DNA of 64,000 bases from the NCBI GenBank assembly GCA_000165345.1, contig CM000431.1, positions 512,001-576,000 on the forward strand, read 5' to 3'. Shown piece by piece: positions 57,001-64,000 of this stretch. Each line of letters opens with the position of its first letter. Positions within the stretch are counted from its first letter, which is position 1. The position numbers are program-made.

Positions 57001-60000
57001 ACCTTTCATAAGAAAATAAATCTAACTTCAATCTAGCTAGAAAAGAACTTAAATTCAACCCTAAAGTGTATACAAAAATACTGGGGAATTTTGTTTGCAT
57101 TTCAAGGGTTTAGAAATTGTTAATTTCAAGTTTAATATAATTACCATTTTTTGCAAAAATTATAAATAAAAGGACACGAAATTTGTTTATATCTATTGTT
57201 AATTCAAGATAAGTAAGCTTAATACAAGTTAAGACTATTATAACTATTTAAGAATAATATTTAGCTGGTTTATTGGATATTCAATTCTCAACCTAAATTT
57301 TGCACTAATTTAAAAGCTATCTTAAGATTATTTTCTGAAATTTTAAGATAAGAATTACTTTAAATAAACTTCTTATTAAATATTGATTTTGTCTCCTGGT
57401 AATAGAATGCTTAACAAAGAGGAGTACGGGCCATGCATAAATAGTACATTTAGTGAGTCGAATAGTAAGATGAATCCAAAAAATAATGAGTCAAATTTTC
57501 AAGATCAAGTCAGCTTAAAGGATTTATTTTCCCTATATGGAAAAAATCCATTTTTTTATACTCTCAAAGAAAATGCCAGAATAAATGGATTTAGGGAATG
57601 TTATTCTTGGATAGGGTCAAATGGGGACATAAAGAAGAAGTTTACTTATAGAGAATTCTTTGAAAAAGTAGTTGAATTAAGTTGGTATTTGAGCAAAAAA
57701 CTAGGAATCAAGGCAGGAGACAAAGTTATTTTGTGTTATACACCAGGATATGATTTTGTAATTGCATTTACTACATGTTTAGTTAGTGGGATTGTTGCTG
57801 TCCCTGTATATCCTCCTGATCCAATGAGAGGACAAAGCGAAATACAGAGGTTTTGTGATATAAAGCAAGCTTCAGAAACTAATATTTCCCTCACTTGTAC
57901 ATCTTATATGAGAAGTATTGAGATAGCTAAAACAATGTCTACCGACAAAAGATTTAAATCAATAAGGTTTGAAGCAACAGATAATTTGAAAATACGGAAG
58001 GAAGAATATATTAACGAAGTACAAAAGGCGATTAATGATATTATTCTTAATGATTCTAATCATTTTGATTTTTTGGGTTTTGATTTTAATATTAATACGG
58101 TAGCATTTCTGCAATTTACTTCAGGATCAACTTCCCAACCAAAAGGGGTGATGGTTACTCATGGAAATCTACTTTATAATATTCATATTTGCATCAGTAG
58201 CTACTCGTTTCCTTCAGTTTTAGAAGAACATTATAAAAATGAGCTTGACAGTATTCCTGCAGGAATTACAGTTTTGAAAAAAAACGAGCTTACAGAAGAT
58301 GAATTATCTTTCATTCATAACGAATTTGGAGAAGAAAAAAATATTATGTCATTAAATGATATTAAGTATGATAAATTGTATTTATATATGAGTATCATTA
58401 ATAAAGTCTTATATAAGAATACAATGAGTTCAGCTTCTGTTTTTAGCTGGCTTCCTGTTTATCATGATATGGGTTTAATTGGTTTTTTTTGTACTCCTTT
58501 GTTTTTTGGGTGTAACATTTTCCAAATGTCCCCAATTGACTTCATAAAAAAACCCTACCTTTGGATGCAATGCATGGATAAATACAATTGTTCTGTAAGC
58601 GGTGCTCCAAACTTTGCTTTTGAAGTCGTCGTAAGAAAAACTCCAAAGGAAATCTTAAATCAACTTAATTTAAAACATGTTTTTGCAATTTTATCTGGAG
58701 CCGAACCAATTAGAAAAACAACAATTGACAGATTTACTGAGGCCTTTAAGTCAGTGGGAATAAAGCATAATGTTATCAAGCCGGCATATGGTCTTGCAGA
58801 GCATACCTTGATTGTAGCAGGGAGCAATAGTTTTCAGCAAGAGGTAAACCATATCACTGTTAACACCAAGAAATTAAGAGAGAAGAATATTGTTGAAATA
58901 AAGGAGGCTAAAGAGAAAAGTTCTACAGAAACAACATCATTTGTTTCGAGTGGTATTGTTTACAAAGGAATTGATTTGAGAATTGTTAATCCGGAGAGTT
59001 TAAAAGAAGTAACTCCCGGAAATGTTGGCGAAATTTGGATTTCAAGTGAGTCTGTAACGCTTGGTTATTATAATAACAAGGAAGAGACAGAAAAAACGTT
59101 CAATGCAAATTTCACTATGCTAGATGGAAAAACATCGAAAAGTACTTACATGAGAACTGGGGATAGTGGTTTCATAATAAATGATATGCTTTATATTTCA
59201 GGGAGAATCAAGGATATGATAATCATTAGAGGTAGAAACTTTTATCCACAAGATATTGAGGAAGTTATTGATGGGGTCAGTGGAGTTAGACAAGGGTCAG
59301 TTGCTGTATTTTCTGTAACCCAGGCAGATGGTGAAGAGGCTATTGGTGTTGCTGTTGAAATCAGAATGGAAACGAGTATACTTGGAAGGGTAAGAAGGTT
59401 TTTTGAAAAACCTGCTTATGATAATATTGTTAGAGCAATATCGAAGGCAGTATTTATTGGGCACGGGCTACCAGTACATTACATTTGGCTTCTCTCCCCT
59501 AGAACAATATTAAAAACAAGCAGTGGAAAAATTAGAAGATCTCAAACAAGAGATGCAATTTTTTCCAAAAAACTTGTTCCATTATTCGAGTGGGTTTGTG
59601 AACAGTCTCCAATGTCTGATATTTTGGTTGAGCGATCATCACAGTTTATTAGTCCAACATCCATGATTATTTCAAAGTCTGGAGTTCAAAATAAATCAAA
59701 ATTTTATGAGAAAACACATTCAGGCCAACAAAAAATATCTGAGCAAGCTAATGATGAAAAAAATGAGTTTGATATTGATCAAGTCAAGATAAAGATCATT
59801 GAATTTGCTGCGCAAGTATTGGGAATAACACAGAAGGACCTGGATCTTAATGCGCCTCTACATGAATATGGAATAGATAGTTTAGGATCAATTCGCCTAT
59901 CTGAAATGATGAATGAAGAGTTTGGTGTAGAGCTAGACTCTACACTTTTATTCAACTATCCAACTGTAATAGAGATTGTGGACTTTGTTGCAGCACAGAT

Positions 60001-63000: not shown

Positions 63001-64000
63001 TTGTAAGGCAAAAATTTCCGAGGGGGAATTTGTTCTAAGCGAAGATCTTGCCCAATTAAAGAACAATACAAATATAAAGGAAGATCCGAAAATTATGTAT
63101 GAAGAATATGAAGAAATTGGTTTGAAATATGGAAAAAAATTCAGAGTTGTGAAAGAAATTTATAGAAATGAGACATGTTCTATTGCTTTAGGAAAAATCT
63201 ATTTACCAGAAACGTGTAAATTTGGAACATTTGAATCTGGATTTTATTTCCATCCTGCAATTTTGGATGGTGCTCTCCATGTTGCAGGCTCACTATTAAA
63301 ATATAAAGATTCTTTTAAGAGTAAGCAGGCAATGGTACCAGTTAGTATTGAAGAAATTGAAATTAAATATGTCAACGCAAATCAAATGATTTGGGCAGCT
63401 GCATATCTTAGTGAAGCGACACAGAATTATTCCATTTTCGATTTAGTTTTGTTCGATTCAGAAGGAAGTTGTATTGGAAAATTAGAAAAAGTTTCTCTGC
63501 GTCAATTTAACAGCAAAAATATTTCGAGACCTACAGTTTCGCACAATGAAATACTTTGGATAACAGAATGGGAGAAATCAGATGTTTTAAAATTTTCAAA
63601 AAATATTTCAAAAGAGAGTGATTTTGATTTAAAAATAGCCTTAATACATTCAGGAATCTGTAATATTAGTGAAAAGGACGATATACAATTGCCCAAAGCC
63701 AATATAAGCTTCGTAAATTTAGATAAAATAAAAGAAAGTAATATTGAAGAGCTAGAAAGACTCATTGATATAACATCACTCGATTCATTAGTTTTCCTCT
63801 CACCAGTTGAACTGGCTTTGTCTGCTAAGATAGATTGTGAGAAGATTTCAATTGATATTTTGGAGTATGTAATGAAGATTTGCAAATTATACTTAAAAAT
63901 ACTAAAGCAAGCCAAACCAACTAAACAAGAACAAAAAATAAATATTCCAAATTTCTGGATCATAACAACAAATTCTCAAAATTTAATCAACTATAATATT

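What the first reader, a model, noticed from the sequence alone, without database searches (positions are those of the whole stretch)
57407..64000. 5' end of a giant type I FAS/PKS with an acyl-ligase-ACP loading didomain
A single frame opens at 57407 and runs off the window. Domain order is AMP-binding acyl ligase, carrier protein, ketosynthase (DSACSAS Cys, two His boxes), acyltransferase, then the dehydratase hot-dog motif HKVYETIVIPGAG. A ligase-type loader fused ahead of KS-AT-DH is unusual for eukaryotic FAS. It is the hallmark of the Cryptosporidium megasynthases (CpFAS1, ~25 kb; CpPKS1, ~40 kb), whose starter units are thought to be medium or long fatty acids rather than acetyl-CoA. 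I cannot tell which of the two this is, or whether it is a third paralogue. The AT active site reads GLSDGE rather than GHSxG, which may bear on extender specificity.
Basis: partly seen in the sequence, partly recalled or inferred. Interest (0 to 1): 0.7.

Follow-up and report, generated by a model that had tools for sequence, protein, structure and literature searches.

The report
Start of Cryptosporidium parvum CpFAS1 gene
This is the first 6.6 kb of the already described giant fatty-acid synthase gene CpFAS1 of the parasite Cryptosporidium parvum; the one new point is that the acyltransferase domain of its first module has lost its catalytic residues yet is still strongly conserved.

Summary
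From ATG 57407 one frame stays open for 2,198 codons to the window end. It encodes acyl ligase, ACP, KS, AT and DH, in that order.

The window is Cryptosporidium parvum chromosome 3 (0 mismatches in 21,332 bp to CP044420.1). The annotated gene there starts at 57407 and encodes 8,243 aa. This is the published three-module fatty acid synthase CpFAS1, not CpPKS1 and not a third paralogue. The gene is already known.

- The catalytic-dyad His is a Gly (YSFG in place of HAFH). None of 501 related AT domains lacks this His.
- The nucleophile position is not conserved across orthologues: Ser, Ala (C. meleagridis), Cys or Gly.
- All other catalytic motifs in the region are invariant, and the AT domains of modules 2 and 3 are canonical.
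- AT1 still keeps the AT fold (pLDDT 86.5) and is under strong purifying selection (dN/dS about 0.09–0.10).

AT1 is therefore most likely a conserved non-catalytic domain. The module 1 ACP would then be malonylated by AT2 or AT3. This conflicts with published statements that every module is enzymatically complete. I could not read the primary papers behind those statements.

The parts
57407..64000 (+). First 2,198 codons (27%) of CpFAS1, the 8,243-aa type I fatty acid synthase of C. parvum. The ORF continues beyond the window end.
   Evidence: Open frame. 0 mismatches in 21,332 bp to CP044420.1, where the gene is annotated with an 8,243-aa product starting at the equivalent of 57407.
57407..59575 (+). 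Acyl-[ACP] ligase (AL) loading domain of the fatty acyl-AMP ligase (FAAL) type, aa 1-723. A3 motif TSGSTSQPKG at aa 238-247. A10 Lys708.
   Evidence: Pfam AMP-binding. Best solved relatives are FAALs: 7r7f E 7e-91, 3kxw 2e-85, FadD23, FadD32, FadD28. Motifs are invariant in 15 orthologues.
58190..58417 (+). Lineage-specific insertion in the AL domain (aa 262-337), between the A3 motif and the FSWLP strand.
   Evidence: The alignment to bacterial FAAL 7r7f jumps from chain residue 193 to 200 while the query goes from 260 to 337. The VTH..FSWLP interval is about 100 aa in most Cryptosporidium, 147 aa in C. serpentis and 66-74 aa in coccidia and Chromera.
59762..60013 (+). Loading acyl carrier protein (ACP0), aa 786-869. 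Phosphopantetheine-attachment Ser825 in GIDSLG.
   Evidence: Pfam PP-binding aa 797-861, E 1.5e-16. The Asp-Ser attachment site (IDS/VDS/LDS) is kept in all 15 sequences. dN/dS 0.04-0.07.
60062..61183 (+). Module 1 ketosynthase, aa 886-1259. Catalytic Cys1057, His1191 and His1231 are all present.
   Evidence: Pfam E 5e-88 and 9e-43. Motifs are invariant in 15 orthologues. dN/dS 0.04-0.05.
61184..61411 (+). KS-AT linker, aa 1260-1335.
   Evidence: Pfam KAsynt_C_assoc, aa 1263-1336, E 6e-6, below the curated cutoff.
61412..62326 (+). Module 1 acyltransferase-like domain (AT1), aa 1336-1640. It has the AT fold but lacks the Ser-His catalytic dyad. GLSDGE (aa 1432-1437, nt 61700-61717) replaces GHSxGE. 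YSFG (aa 1546-1549, within YSFGT at nt 62042-62056) replaces HAFH, so the dyad His position is Gly1549. Arg1459 is retained.
   Evidence: Pfam Acyl_transf_1 at only 77 bits. Alignments to CurL, EryAIII and ZmaA structures and to orthologues and the module 2 and 3 ATs. AF2 model pLDDT 86.5, TM 0.77-0.82 to solved ATs. dN/dS 0.09-0.10. 0 of 501 background ATs lack the dyad His.
62534..63514 (+). Module 1 dehydratase, aa 1710-2036. Catalytic His1740 in HKVYETIVIP (an HxxxExxxxP variant of HxxxGxxxxP), GLKYGKKF, and Asp1954 in LDGALH.
   Evidence: Pfam PKS_DH_N plus PS-DH. His and Asp are invariant in 15 orthologues. The +4 position is E, D or N in intestinal Cryptosporidium and G in C. serpentis, coccidia and Chromera.
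63515..64000 (+). Post-DH linker leading to the ER domain, which lies beyond the window.
   Evidence: No Pfam hit. Fast-evolving, dN/dS 0.21-0.25. In the C. tyzzeri orthologue ER, KR and ACP1 follow.

Best explanation
Identity. The region is the 5' quarter of CpFAS1, the intronless gene of about 25 kb on C. parvum chromosome 3. It encodes an 8,243-aa modular type I fatty acid synthase that acts as a fatty-acyl elongase.

Mechanism (reaction scheme from the literature; roles assigned to residues from the motifs found here).
1. The FAAL-type ligase (aa 1-723) adenylates a free medium- or long-chain fatty acid. It transfers the acyl group directly to the phosphopantetheine arm on Ser825 of the loading ACP.
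2. KS1 (Cys1057, His1191, His1231) takes the acyl chain and condenses it with malonyl-ACP1.
3. KR1, DH1 (His1740, Asp1954) and ER1 reduce the product fully.
4. Two further complete modules repeat the cycle, adding six carbons in total.
5. A C-terminal reductase releases a chain of C20 or longer.

New inference (my probability about 0.7). The AT-like domain of module 1 is not a working malonyl transferase. It is a conserved structural pseudo-enzyme inside the KS-AT didomain. ACP1 would then be malonylated by the canonical malonyl-type ATs of module 2 or 3. Transfer between modules must already occur in the AT-less modules of the Cryptosporidium PKS.

The confidence given below applies to the gene identity and the overall mechanism, not to the AT1 inference.
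For: Identity:
- Window 42188-63519 has 0 mismatches in 21,332 bp to C. parvum CP044420.1. The gene there has an 8,243-aa product and starts at the equivalent of 57407.
- Two neighbouring ORFs are exact matches to C. parvum Iowa II proteins.
- Orthologues named type I FAS are 44-98% identical, while a Cryptosporidium PKS is 33% identical.
- The C. tyzzeri orthologue (98% identical) has 1 AL, 3 KS, 3 AT and 3 DH.

Architecture and biochemistry from the literature:
- AL-ACP, then 3 x (KS-AT-DH-ER-KR-ACP), then R. [quoted passage not shown] The R domain is active only on acyl chains of C20 or longer (PMC2995488).
- 921 kDa, three modules (PMC6568194).

FAAL type: the best solved relatives are FAALs.

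Active sites: the AL, ACP0, KS and DH catalytic residues are invariant in 15 orthologues out to Chromera.

AT1 degeneracy:
- GLSDGE and YSFG align to GHSxGE and HAFH/YASH of CurL, EryAIII and the module 2 and 3 ATs.
- The nucleophile column is Ser in six close species and Ala in C. meleagridis. The Ala is a TCA-to-GCA change present in two independent assemblies.
- The same column is Cys in C. felis and Gly in C. bovis, C. ryanae, C. serpentis, Cardiosporidium, Eimeria, Cyclospora and a Gregarina PKS.
- More than 40 bacterial FAAL-PKS relatives, Chromera and Vitrella are canonical at GHSxGE (the dyad-His motif was also recovered in all of these except Vitrella, whose sequence ends before it).
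- In 501 background AT domains the dyad His is present in 501 and the Ser in 499.

AT1 still constrained: AF2 pLDDT 86.5 and TM about 0.8 to solved ATs. dN/dS is 0.09-0.10, against 0.17-0.34 for the post-AT and post-DH linkers.

Module 1 otherwise complete: ER, KR and ACP1 with a DSL serine.

Precedent for loading from another module: the C. andersoni PKS modules 1 and 2 have no AT.
Against: [quoted passage not shown] It cites Zhu 2004 (Mol Biochem Parasitol 134:127) and a 2004 review. Neither is held, so I could not see how, or whether, AT1 activity was measured on its own.
- C. parvum itself does have a Ser at the nucleophile position.
- The malonyl-binding Arg (Arg1459) is invariant.
- Purifying selection is as strong as on a working enzyme domain.
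- These points leave room for a non-canonical activity or a ligand-binding role.
- Malonylation of ACP1 by AT2 or AT3 is pure inference.
- The canonical state of AT2 and AT3 was read from C. tyzzeri, not from C. parvum, because that part of the gene lies outside the window.
Confidence: 0.9

Rival explanations
1. AT1 is a working acyltransferase with unusual active-site chemistry, and the GLSDGE motif reflects an altered extender or substrate specificity.
For: - Ser1434 is present in C. parvum and five close relatives, and survives a synonymous change (TCA to TCC in C. ubiquitum).
- Arg1459 is invariant.
- dN/dS is about 0.09-0.10.
- The His before the Ser is not universal: ZmaA has GYSFGE, and 12 of 501 background ATs have Y, Q, T or F at that position.
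- The literature states that all module domains are functional (PMC2995488).
Against: - The dyad His is Gly1549, and none of 501 related ATs lacks this His.
- ZmaA, the best structural match, keeps it.
- The Ser is replaced by Ala in C. meleagridis, whose AT1 is 95% identical, and by Cys or Gly in other orthologues. A Ser-dependent mechanism therefore cannot be the conserved function.
- Leu at the pre-Ser position never occurs in the background set.
- Gly is the state in the outgroups and in the three most divergent Cryptosporidium sequences. By parsimony the C. parvum Ser is secondary (inference).
Confidence: 0.2
2. The gene is CpPKS1, or a third, undescribed megasynthase paralogue.
For: The loading didomain and the KS are homologous to those of Cryptosporidium PKS: 32% identity for AL and 42-45% for KS against the C. 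andersoni PKS.
Against: - DNA identity to the annotated 8,243-aa gene on chromosome 3.
- FAS-named orthologues are 44-98% identical, against 33% for the PKS.
- The orthologue has three modules, not seven (PMC6568194).
- PKS modules 1 and 2 have only about 100 aa between KS and DH and no AT, while this gene has a 305-aa AT-like domain.
Confidence: 0.01
3. Module 1 does not elongate. With a dead AT it only passes the starter on, so CpFAS1 adds two C2 units rather than three.
For: - AT1 lacks the catalytic dyad.
- The R domain accepts chains of C20 or longer (PMC2995488). That fits C16 plus two C2 units as well as C16 plus three.
Against: - KS1 keeps Cys and both decarboxylation His residues. They are invariant in 15 orthologues, and KS1 has the lowest dN/dS in the region.
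- Established knowledge: non-elongating KS0 domains typically lose the HGTGT His.
- DH1, ER1, KR1 and ACP1 all keep their motifs. That would be unnecessary in a pass-through module.
Confidence: 0.1

Closest known systems
CpFAS1, Cryptosporidium parvum type I fatty acid synthase (Zhu et al. 2000, 2004, 2010; PMC2995488)
   Same: It is this gene. The DNA is identical to the annotated chromosome 3 locus, with the same start codon, an 8,243-aa product and AL-ACP-KS-AT-DH at the N-terminus.
   Different: Nothing differs in the sequence. The difference is in interpretation. The literature I could read treats all three modules as enzymatically complete, while the sequence shows that AT1 lacks the Ser-His dyad.
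CpPKS1, the seven-module Cryptosporidium polyketide synthase (Zhu 2002; PMC6568194)
   Same: Same kind of FAAL-type AL-ACP loader, homologous KS and DH domains, and release by a C-terminal reductase.
   Different: Only about 33% identical (C. andersoni orthologue). Seven modules rather than three. In the C. andersoni orthologue modules 1 and 2 have no AT domain at all. The C. parvum PKS1 sequence itself was not examined.
Bacterial FAAL-ACP-KS-AT loading modules of lipopeptide and polyketide synthases (FadD32/Pks13-type logic; cyanobacterial and Chloroflexi FAAL-PKS)
   Same: Same domain order. The ligase is most similar to solved FAALs. These proteins are the closest non-apicomplexan relatives over AL-ACP-KS-AT, at 31-41% identity.
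   Different: The bacterial first-module ATs examined all have GHSxGE and a dyad His. They lack the insertion of about 75 aa after the A3 motif.
Inactive or missing AT domains in modular PKSs (TgPKS2 AT3 with Q72H, PMC9301873; AT-less algal modular PKSs served in trans, PMC4661987)
   Same: An AT-shaped domain, or a gap where an AT would be, inside an otherwise functional module. This implies loading by another AT.
   Different: TgPKS2 AT3 keeps its Ser-His dyad and is switched off by one Gln-to-His change. Here the dyad itself is gone, while the fold is kept and strongly constrained. Algal trans-AT modules have lost the domain entirely.

Membership tests
CpFAS1 (C. parvum type I FAS gene) | Located on C. 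parvum chromosome 3 as an intronless ORF of about 25 kb encoding 8,243 aa | tested here: met
   0 mismatches in 21,332 bp to CP044420.1. The annotated product is 8,243 aa and starts at the equivalent of window 57407. 'Intronless' and '25 kb' are from PMC2995488. Only 6.6 kb lies in the window, and that part is uninterrupted.
CpFAS1 (C. parvum type I FAS gene) | N-terminal loading unit of acyl ligase plus ACP | tested here: met
   Pfam AMP-binding then PP-binding. FAAL-like by PDB comparison.
CpFAS1 (C. parvum type I FAS gene) | Three elongation modules, against seven in CpPKS1 | tested here: met
   Tested on the 98%-identical C. tyzzeri orthologue P0124, which has 3 KS, 3 AT and 3 DH. The C. 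parvum downstream sequence lies outside the window.
CpFAS1 (C. parvum type I FAS gene) | Each module carries a complete set of six working enzymes, as stated in the literature | tested here: not met
   AT1 lacks the dyad His (Gly1549) and the GHSxG His, and its Ser is not conserved in orthologues. This does not affect gene identity. It is a sequence inference that disputes a published description, and enzyme activity was not measured here.
Fatty acyl-AMP ligase (FAAL) family | Adenylate-forming fold with A3, A8 and A10 core motifs, and closest similarity to characterised FAALs rather than acyl-CoA synthetases | tested here: met
   Top PDB hits are FAALs at E 1e-49 to 7e-91, while acyl-CoA and other CoA ligases score around 1e-11 to 1e-14. 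The motifs TSGSTSQPKG, RTGD and SSGK are present and conserved across orthologues, with the catalytic Lys invariant.
Fatty acyl-AMP ligase (FAAL) family | Transfers the acyl group to a carrier protein rather than to CoA | not testable with these tools
   The literature reports acyl-[ACP] ligase activity for the CpFAS1 loader (PMC2995488, citing Zhu 2004). The FAAL-specific insertion was not mapped explicitly here.
Malonyl-CoA:ACP acyltransferase domains (Pfam PF00698, PKS/FAS AT) | AT fold (alpha/beta-hydrolase-like core plus a small ferredoxin-like subdomain) | tested here: met
   Pfam E 2.3e-21. phmmer to ZmaA AT at E 5.8e-29 over the full length. AF2 pLDDT 86.5, Foldseek TM 0.77-0.82.
Malonyl-CoA:ACP acyltransferase domains (Pfam PF00698, PKS/FAS AT) | Nucleophilic Ser in the GHSxG motif | tested here: inconclusive
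   Ser1434 is present in C. parvum, but within GLSDG. The same position is Ala, Cys or Gly in orthologues. The Ser is present in 499 of 501 background ATs.
Malonyl-CoA:ACP acyltransferase domains (Pfam PF00698, PKS/FAS AT) | Catalytic-dyad His (the last His of the HAFH/YASH motif) | tested here: not met
   Gly1549 (YSFG) in alignments to CurL, EryAIII, ZmaA and the module 2 and 3 ATs. The His is present in 501 of 501 background ATs.
Malonyl-CoA:ACP acyltransferase domains (Pfam PF00698, PKS/FAS AT) | Arg that binds the malonyl carboxylate (FabD Arg117 equivalent) | tested here: met
   Arg1459 is invariant in the 15-sequence alignment.

The most novel reading that the evidence does not exclude
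The first-module AT of the ligase-loaded type I FAS has been a non-catalytic, strongly conserved pseudo-enzyme domain since before Cryptosporidium, coccidia and Cardiosporidium diverged, and a gregarine PKS shows the same loss.
- Outgroups and the most divergent Cryptosporidium sequences have Gly at the nucleophile position.
- The Ser in C. parvum would then be a secondary drift among small residues.
- Module 1 would depend on malonyl transfer from AT2 or AT3.
- If so, CpFAS1 is a natural cis/trans hybrid, and the published model of three self-sufficient modules needs revising.

I found no mention of this in the papers I could read, but the 2000 and 2004 primary papers were not available.
Probability: 0.55. 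Interest if true: 0.45.

Novelty: already known. Interest (0 to 1): 0.3.

Why it matters
The gene itself is a long-known curiosity and a proposed drug target. It is a 921-kDa elongase in a parasite that cannot make fatty acids de novo.

What is worth carrying forward is the AT1 result:
- If module 1 cannot load its own ACP, in-vitro work with isolated modules would misreport its behaviour.
- Predictions of product chain length (C16 plus two or three C2 units) would need re-checking.
- Inhibitor design against AT domains should target AT2 and AT3.
- It would be a clean natural example of a catalytically dead but tightly constrained AT domain, useful to people who engineer KS-AT didomains in modular synthases.

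Tried and rejected
I replaced it with domain-by-domain BLAST.
- The search for homologous proteins with AT1 alone returned nothing, although 98%-identical proteins are in the database.
- The exhaustive phmmer scan with AT1 added no new apicomplexan orthologues, because multi-AT bacterial PKSs dominate the summed scores. I used it as a background set instead.
- The primary papers (Zhu 2000; Zhu 2004 MBP; Zhu 2004 JEM review) are not held. The supplement of PMC9301873 is not held. I therefore could not see how AT activity was assayed, or whether the GLSDG motif was noted before.
- My first guess, that 'ANAHS' at aa 1533-1537 was the HAFH equivalent, was rejected. It lies in a Cryptosporidium-specific insertion that is gapped in all canonical ATs. 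The true equivalent is YSFG.
- An early notebook entry called the 'taatag' just before the ATG the upstream stops. Those codons are out of frame. The in-frame stop is the TAA at 57377.
- I considered contamination or a bacterial origin of the window and rejected both. Neighbouring genes are typical eukaryotic genes and match C. parvum exactly.
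Full report
**1. Observation**

Translating 57407..64000 on the + strand gives 2,198 codons with no stop.
- The ATG at 57407 is the first in-frame ATG after a TAA at 57377-57379, 10 codons upstream.
- None of the other five frames stays open for more than 157 aa.
- At this base composition a random frame would stay open that long with probability about 2e-81.
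- The upstream 700 bp is AT-rich intergenic DNA.

| Domain | Residues | E-value |
|---|---|---|
| AMP-binding | 68 to about 723 | 2.5e-49 |
| PP-binding | 797-861 | 1.5e-16 |
| Ketosynthase N and C | 886-1259 | 5e-88 and 9e-43 |
| Acyl_transf_1 | 1336-1618 | 2.3e-21 |
| PKS dehydratase | 1710-2036 | 8.5e-21 |

The quoted motifs were checked by coordinate:
- DSACSAS at nt 60566-60586
- GLSDGE at nt 61700-61717
- HKVYETIVIP at nt 62624-62653

**2. Which gene and which organism**

- Two complete neighbouring ORFs (52188-53519 on the minus strand, 51197-52171 on the plus strand) are exact matches to C. parvum Iowa II proteins EAK89091.1 and EAK89093.1.
- Looking up the first of them returned C. 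parvum chromosome 3 assemblies. Window 42188-63519 has 0 mismatches in 21,332 bp to CP044420.1 (GCA_015245375.1).
- In those assemblies the gene that begins at the equivalent of window 57407 has an annotated product of 8,243 residues.
- The literature describes CpFAS1 as a 25-kb intronless ORF with at least 21 domains: AL-ACP, three KS-AT-DH-ER-KR-ACP modules and a C-terminal reductase (PMC2995488). It is 921 kDa with three modules, against the 40-kb, seven-module CpPKS1 (PMC6568194).

- In the protein database the best matches are Cryptosporidium proteins named type I fatty acid synthase. Identities are 98% for C. hominis, 86% for chipmunk genotype I, 83% for C. ubiquitum, 74% for C. canis, 66% for C. 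felis, 59% for C. bovis and C. ryanae, and 44% for C. serpentis. A Cryptosporidium polyketide synthase (C. andersoni) is only 33% identical over 57% of the query.
- The nearly full-length C. tyzzeri orthologue (7,770 aa, 98% identical) contains one ligase and three KS, three AT and three DH domains.
- The C. andersoni PKS has only about 100 residues and no AT between KS and DH in each of its first two modules. This gene has a 305-residue AT-like domain there.

It is CpFAS1.

**3. The loader**

- The ligase domain is closest to solved fatty acyl-AMP ligases: 7r7f at 7e-91, 3kxw at 2e-85, then FadD23, FadD32, FadD28 and 3pbk. Acyl-CoA ligases score around 1e-11 to 1e-14.
- The closest non-apicomplexan relatives over AL-ACP-KS-AT are bacterial FAAL-PKS proteins. 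A ligase-type loader is unusual for animal or fungal FAS but ordinary for this class.
- The ligase carries an insertion after the A3 motif (aa 262-337) that bacterial FAALs lack. Its length varies among alveolates.

**4. Active sites**

Across 15 orthologues out to Chromera, the following residues are invariant:
- the catalytic Lys708 of the ligase, with the A3 and A8 motifs conserved
- the ACP0 Ser825
- the KS triad Cys1057, His1191 and His1231
- the DH residues His1740 and Asp1954

The DH motif is an HxxxExxxxP variant. The +4 residue is E, D or N in intestinal Cryptosporidium and G elsewhere, which does not touch the catalytic residues.

**5. The AT of module 1 is the exception**

The motif is real, but more is missing.

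In a MAFFT alignment and in HMMER alignments to solved structures, the window's 'LRTKYSFGTNGM' aligns with:
- CurL 'LQVSHAFHSRLM'
- EryAIII 'LPVDYASHSRHV'
- the module 2 and 3 ATs of the C. tyzzeri orthologue, 'LDVSHAFHSPLV'

So the general-base His of the Ser-His dyad is Gly1549.

The nucleophile position is not conserved either:

| Species | Residue |
|---|---|
| C. parvum, C. hominis, C. tyzzeri, chipmunk genotype I, C. ubiquitum, C. canis | Ser |
| C. meleagridis | Ala |
| C. felis | Cys |
| C. bovis, C. ryanae, C. serpentis, Cardiosporidium, Eimeria, Cyclospora, a Gregarina PKS | Gly |

- The C. meleagridis change is a single TCA-to-GCA substitution, and two independent assemblies encode it.
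- AT2 and AT3 of the same synthase read GHSLGE and HAFH, the malonyl-type motifs.
- More than 40 bacterial FAAL-PKS relatives and Chromera are canonical at both motifs. Vitrella is canonical at GHSxGE, but its sequence ends before the dyad-His motif.
- As a background I took the 148 proteins most similar to AT1 in an exhaustive scan of 1.84 billion representatives. They contain 501 AT domains.
- All 501 keep the dyad His, 499 keep the Ser, and none has Leu before the Ser.

The outgroups and the three most divergent Cryptosporidium sequences carry Gly. The simplest reading is therefore that the nucleophile was lost long ago. The Ser in the C. parvum group would be a later drift among small residues. 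This step is inference.

**6. AT1 is not decaying**

- An AlphaFold2 model built on 15 sequences has mean pLDDT 86.5 and pTM 0.86.
- It superimposes on solved PKS AT domains at TM 0.77-0.82.
- The malonyl-binding Arg (Arg1459) is invariant.

Nei-Gojobori dN/dS against three relatives:

| Region | C. meleagridis | chipmunk genotype I | C. ubiquitum |
|---|---|---|---|
| AT1 | 0.092 | 0.103 | 0.093 |
| KS | 0.042 | 0.036 | 0.049 |
| AL | 0.140 | 0.096 | 0.083 |
| DH | 0.166 | 0.167 | 0.135 |
| Post-AT linker | 0.169 | 0.337 | 0.231 |
| Post-DH linker | 0.248 | 0.214 | 0.221 |

The domain is therefore strongly constrained while lacking the canonical catalytic machinery. That is the signature of a pseudo-enzyme with a structural or binding role.

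**7. How it most likely works**

Shown or published:
- The FAAL-type ligase loads a long-chain fatty acid on ACP0.
- Three modules each add and fully reduce a C2 unit.
- The reductase releases a product of C20 or longer (PMC2995488).

Shown here:
- KS1 and DH1 keep their catalytic residues.
- In the C. tyzzeri orthologue, ER1, KR1 and ACP1 keep their motifs, including the ACP1 DSL serine.
- Module 1 therefore looks like an elongating module that needs malonyl-ACP1.

Inferred:
- AT1 cannot supply that malonyl group by the canonical mechanism, so ACP1 is probably loaded by AT2 or AT3.
- ACP1 is tethered directly upstream of KS2-AT2, which makes AT2 the obvious candidate.
- The AT-less modules of the Cryptosporidium PKS, and the trans-loaded modular PKSs common in algae (PMC4661987), show that this logic is available in the lineage.

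I put about 0.7 on AT1 being inactive as a malonyl transferase in C. parvum. For the species without a Ser the probability is close to certainty.

**8. What argues against the AT1 inference**

- PMC2995488 states that all domains in the three modules are enzymatically functional, citing the 2004 expression study and a review.
- I could not obtain those papers, so I do not know whether AT1 was assayed separately or only within a whole-module protein.
- C. parvum does retain a Ser and the Arg, and selection is strong. A non-canonical activity cannot be excluded.
- PMC9301873 calls inactive ATs rare. It surveys 263 ATs, including some from C. parvum, for a different lesion (Gln to His at position 72), and it does not mention this domain.
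- No other held paper that I searched mentions it either.

**9. Verdict**

The gene is the well-known CpFAS1, so the finding itself is already known.
- The AT remark pointed at something real, but the better reading is loss of catalysis in a conserved domain, not altered specificity.
- That sub-finding is of moderate specialist interest and can be tested directly.

Noticed in passing
window 53930-54697 (-): A PTPLA/HACD-family gene (3-hydroxyacyl-CoA dehydratase of the ER very-long-chain fatty acid elongase; Pfam PF04387, E 8e-47) lies about 2.7 kb upstream of CpFAS1. The same 40 kb also holds a choline/ethanolamine kinase (24198-25400, minus strand) and a phosphatidylserine decarboxylase (around 41509-42348, plus strand). 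This is a loose grouping of lipid-metabolism genes and may be coincidence.
   Followed up: no
window 58190-58417 (+), aa 262-337 of CpFAS1: An insertion in the FAAL-type ligase after the A3 motif. It is absent from bacterial FAAL structures and variable among alveolates. The VTH..FSWLP interval is about 100 aa in most Cryptosporidium, 147 aa in C. serpentis and 66-74 aa in coccidia and Chromera. Its C-terminal half is conserved (SLNDIKYDK.Y.YM). Function unknown.
   Followed up: partly
P0021 (C. andersoni polyketide synthase), aa 864-1340 and 2838-3320: The first two modules of the Cryptosporidium PKS orthologue have KS followed by a short linker and then DH, with no AT domain detectable even with a dedicated AT profile. 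These ACPs must be loaded by an AT elsewhere.
   Followed up: partly
window 62624-62653 (+), aa 1740-1749: The DH1 active-site motif is HxxxExxxxP in C. parvum rather than HxxxGxxxxP. The +4 position is E, D or N in intestinal Cryptosporidium but G in C. serpentis, coccidia and Chromera. The catalytic His and Asp are unaffected.
   Followed up: partly
window 7808-10639 (+) and 18028-20661 (-): Two long ORFs (943 and 877 aa) have no Pfam match at E of 1e-5 or better. The first lies in the only GC-rich stretch of the window (47.6% GC at 8001-10000, against about 33% elsewhere).
   Followed up: no
window 33515-38854 (-): A 1,779-aa ORF with Ion_trans_2 and BK_channel_a domains, i.e. a calcium-activated BK-type potassium channel homologue.
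   Followed up: no
L005 (C. meleagridis CM077709.1) and other Cryptosporidium assemblies: In several public assemblies the FAS1 gene is annotated as several 'partial' proteins of about 2,000-2,500 aa with inconsistent names: AMP-binding enzyme, beta-ketoacyl synthase N-terminal domain protein, polyketide synthase. In C. meleagridis two called genes overlap at 7669-7951. In some cases the gene simply reaches the end of its contig. These look like annotation or assembly artefacts of a single giant ORF.
   Followed up: no
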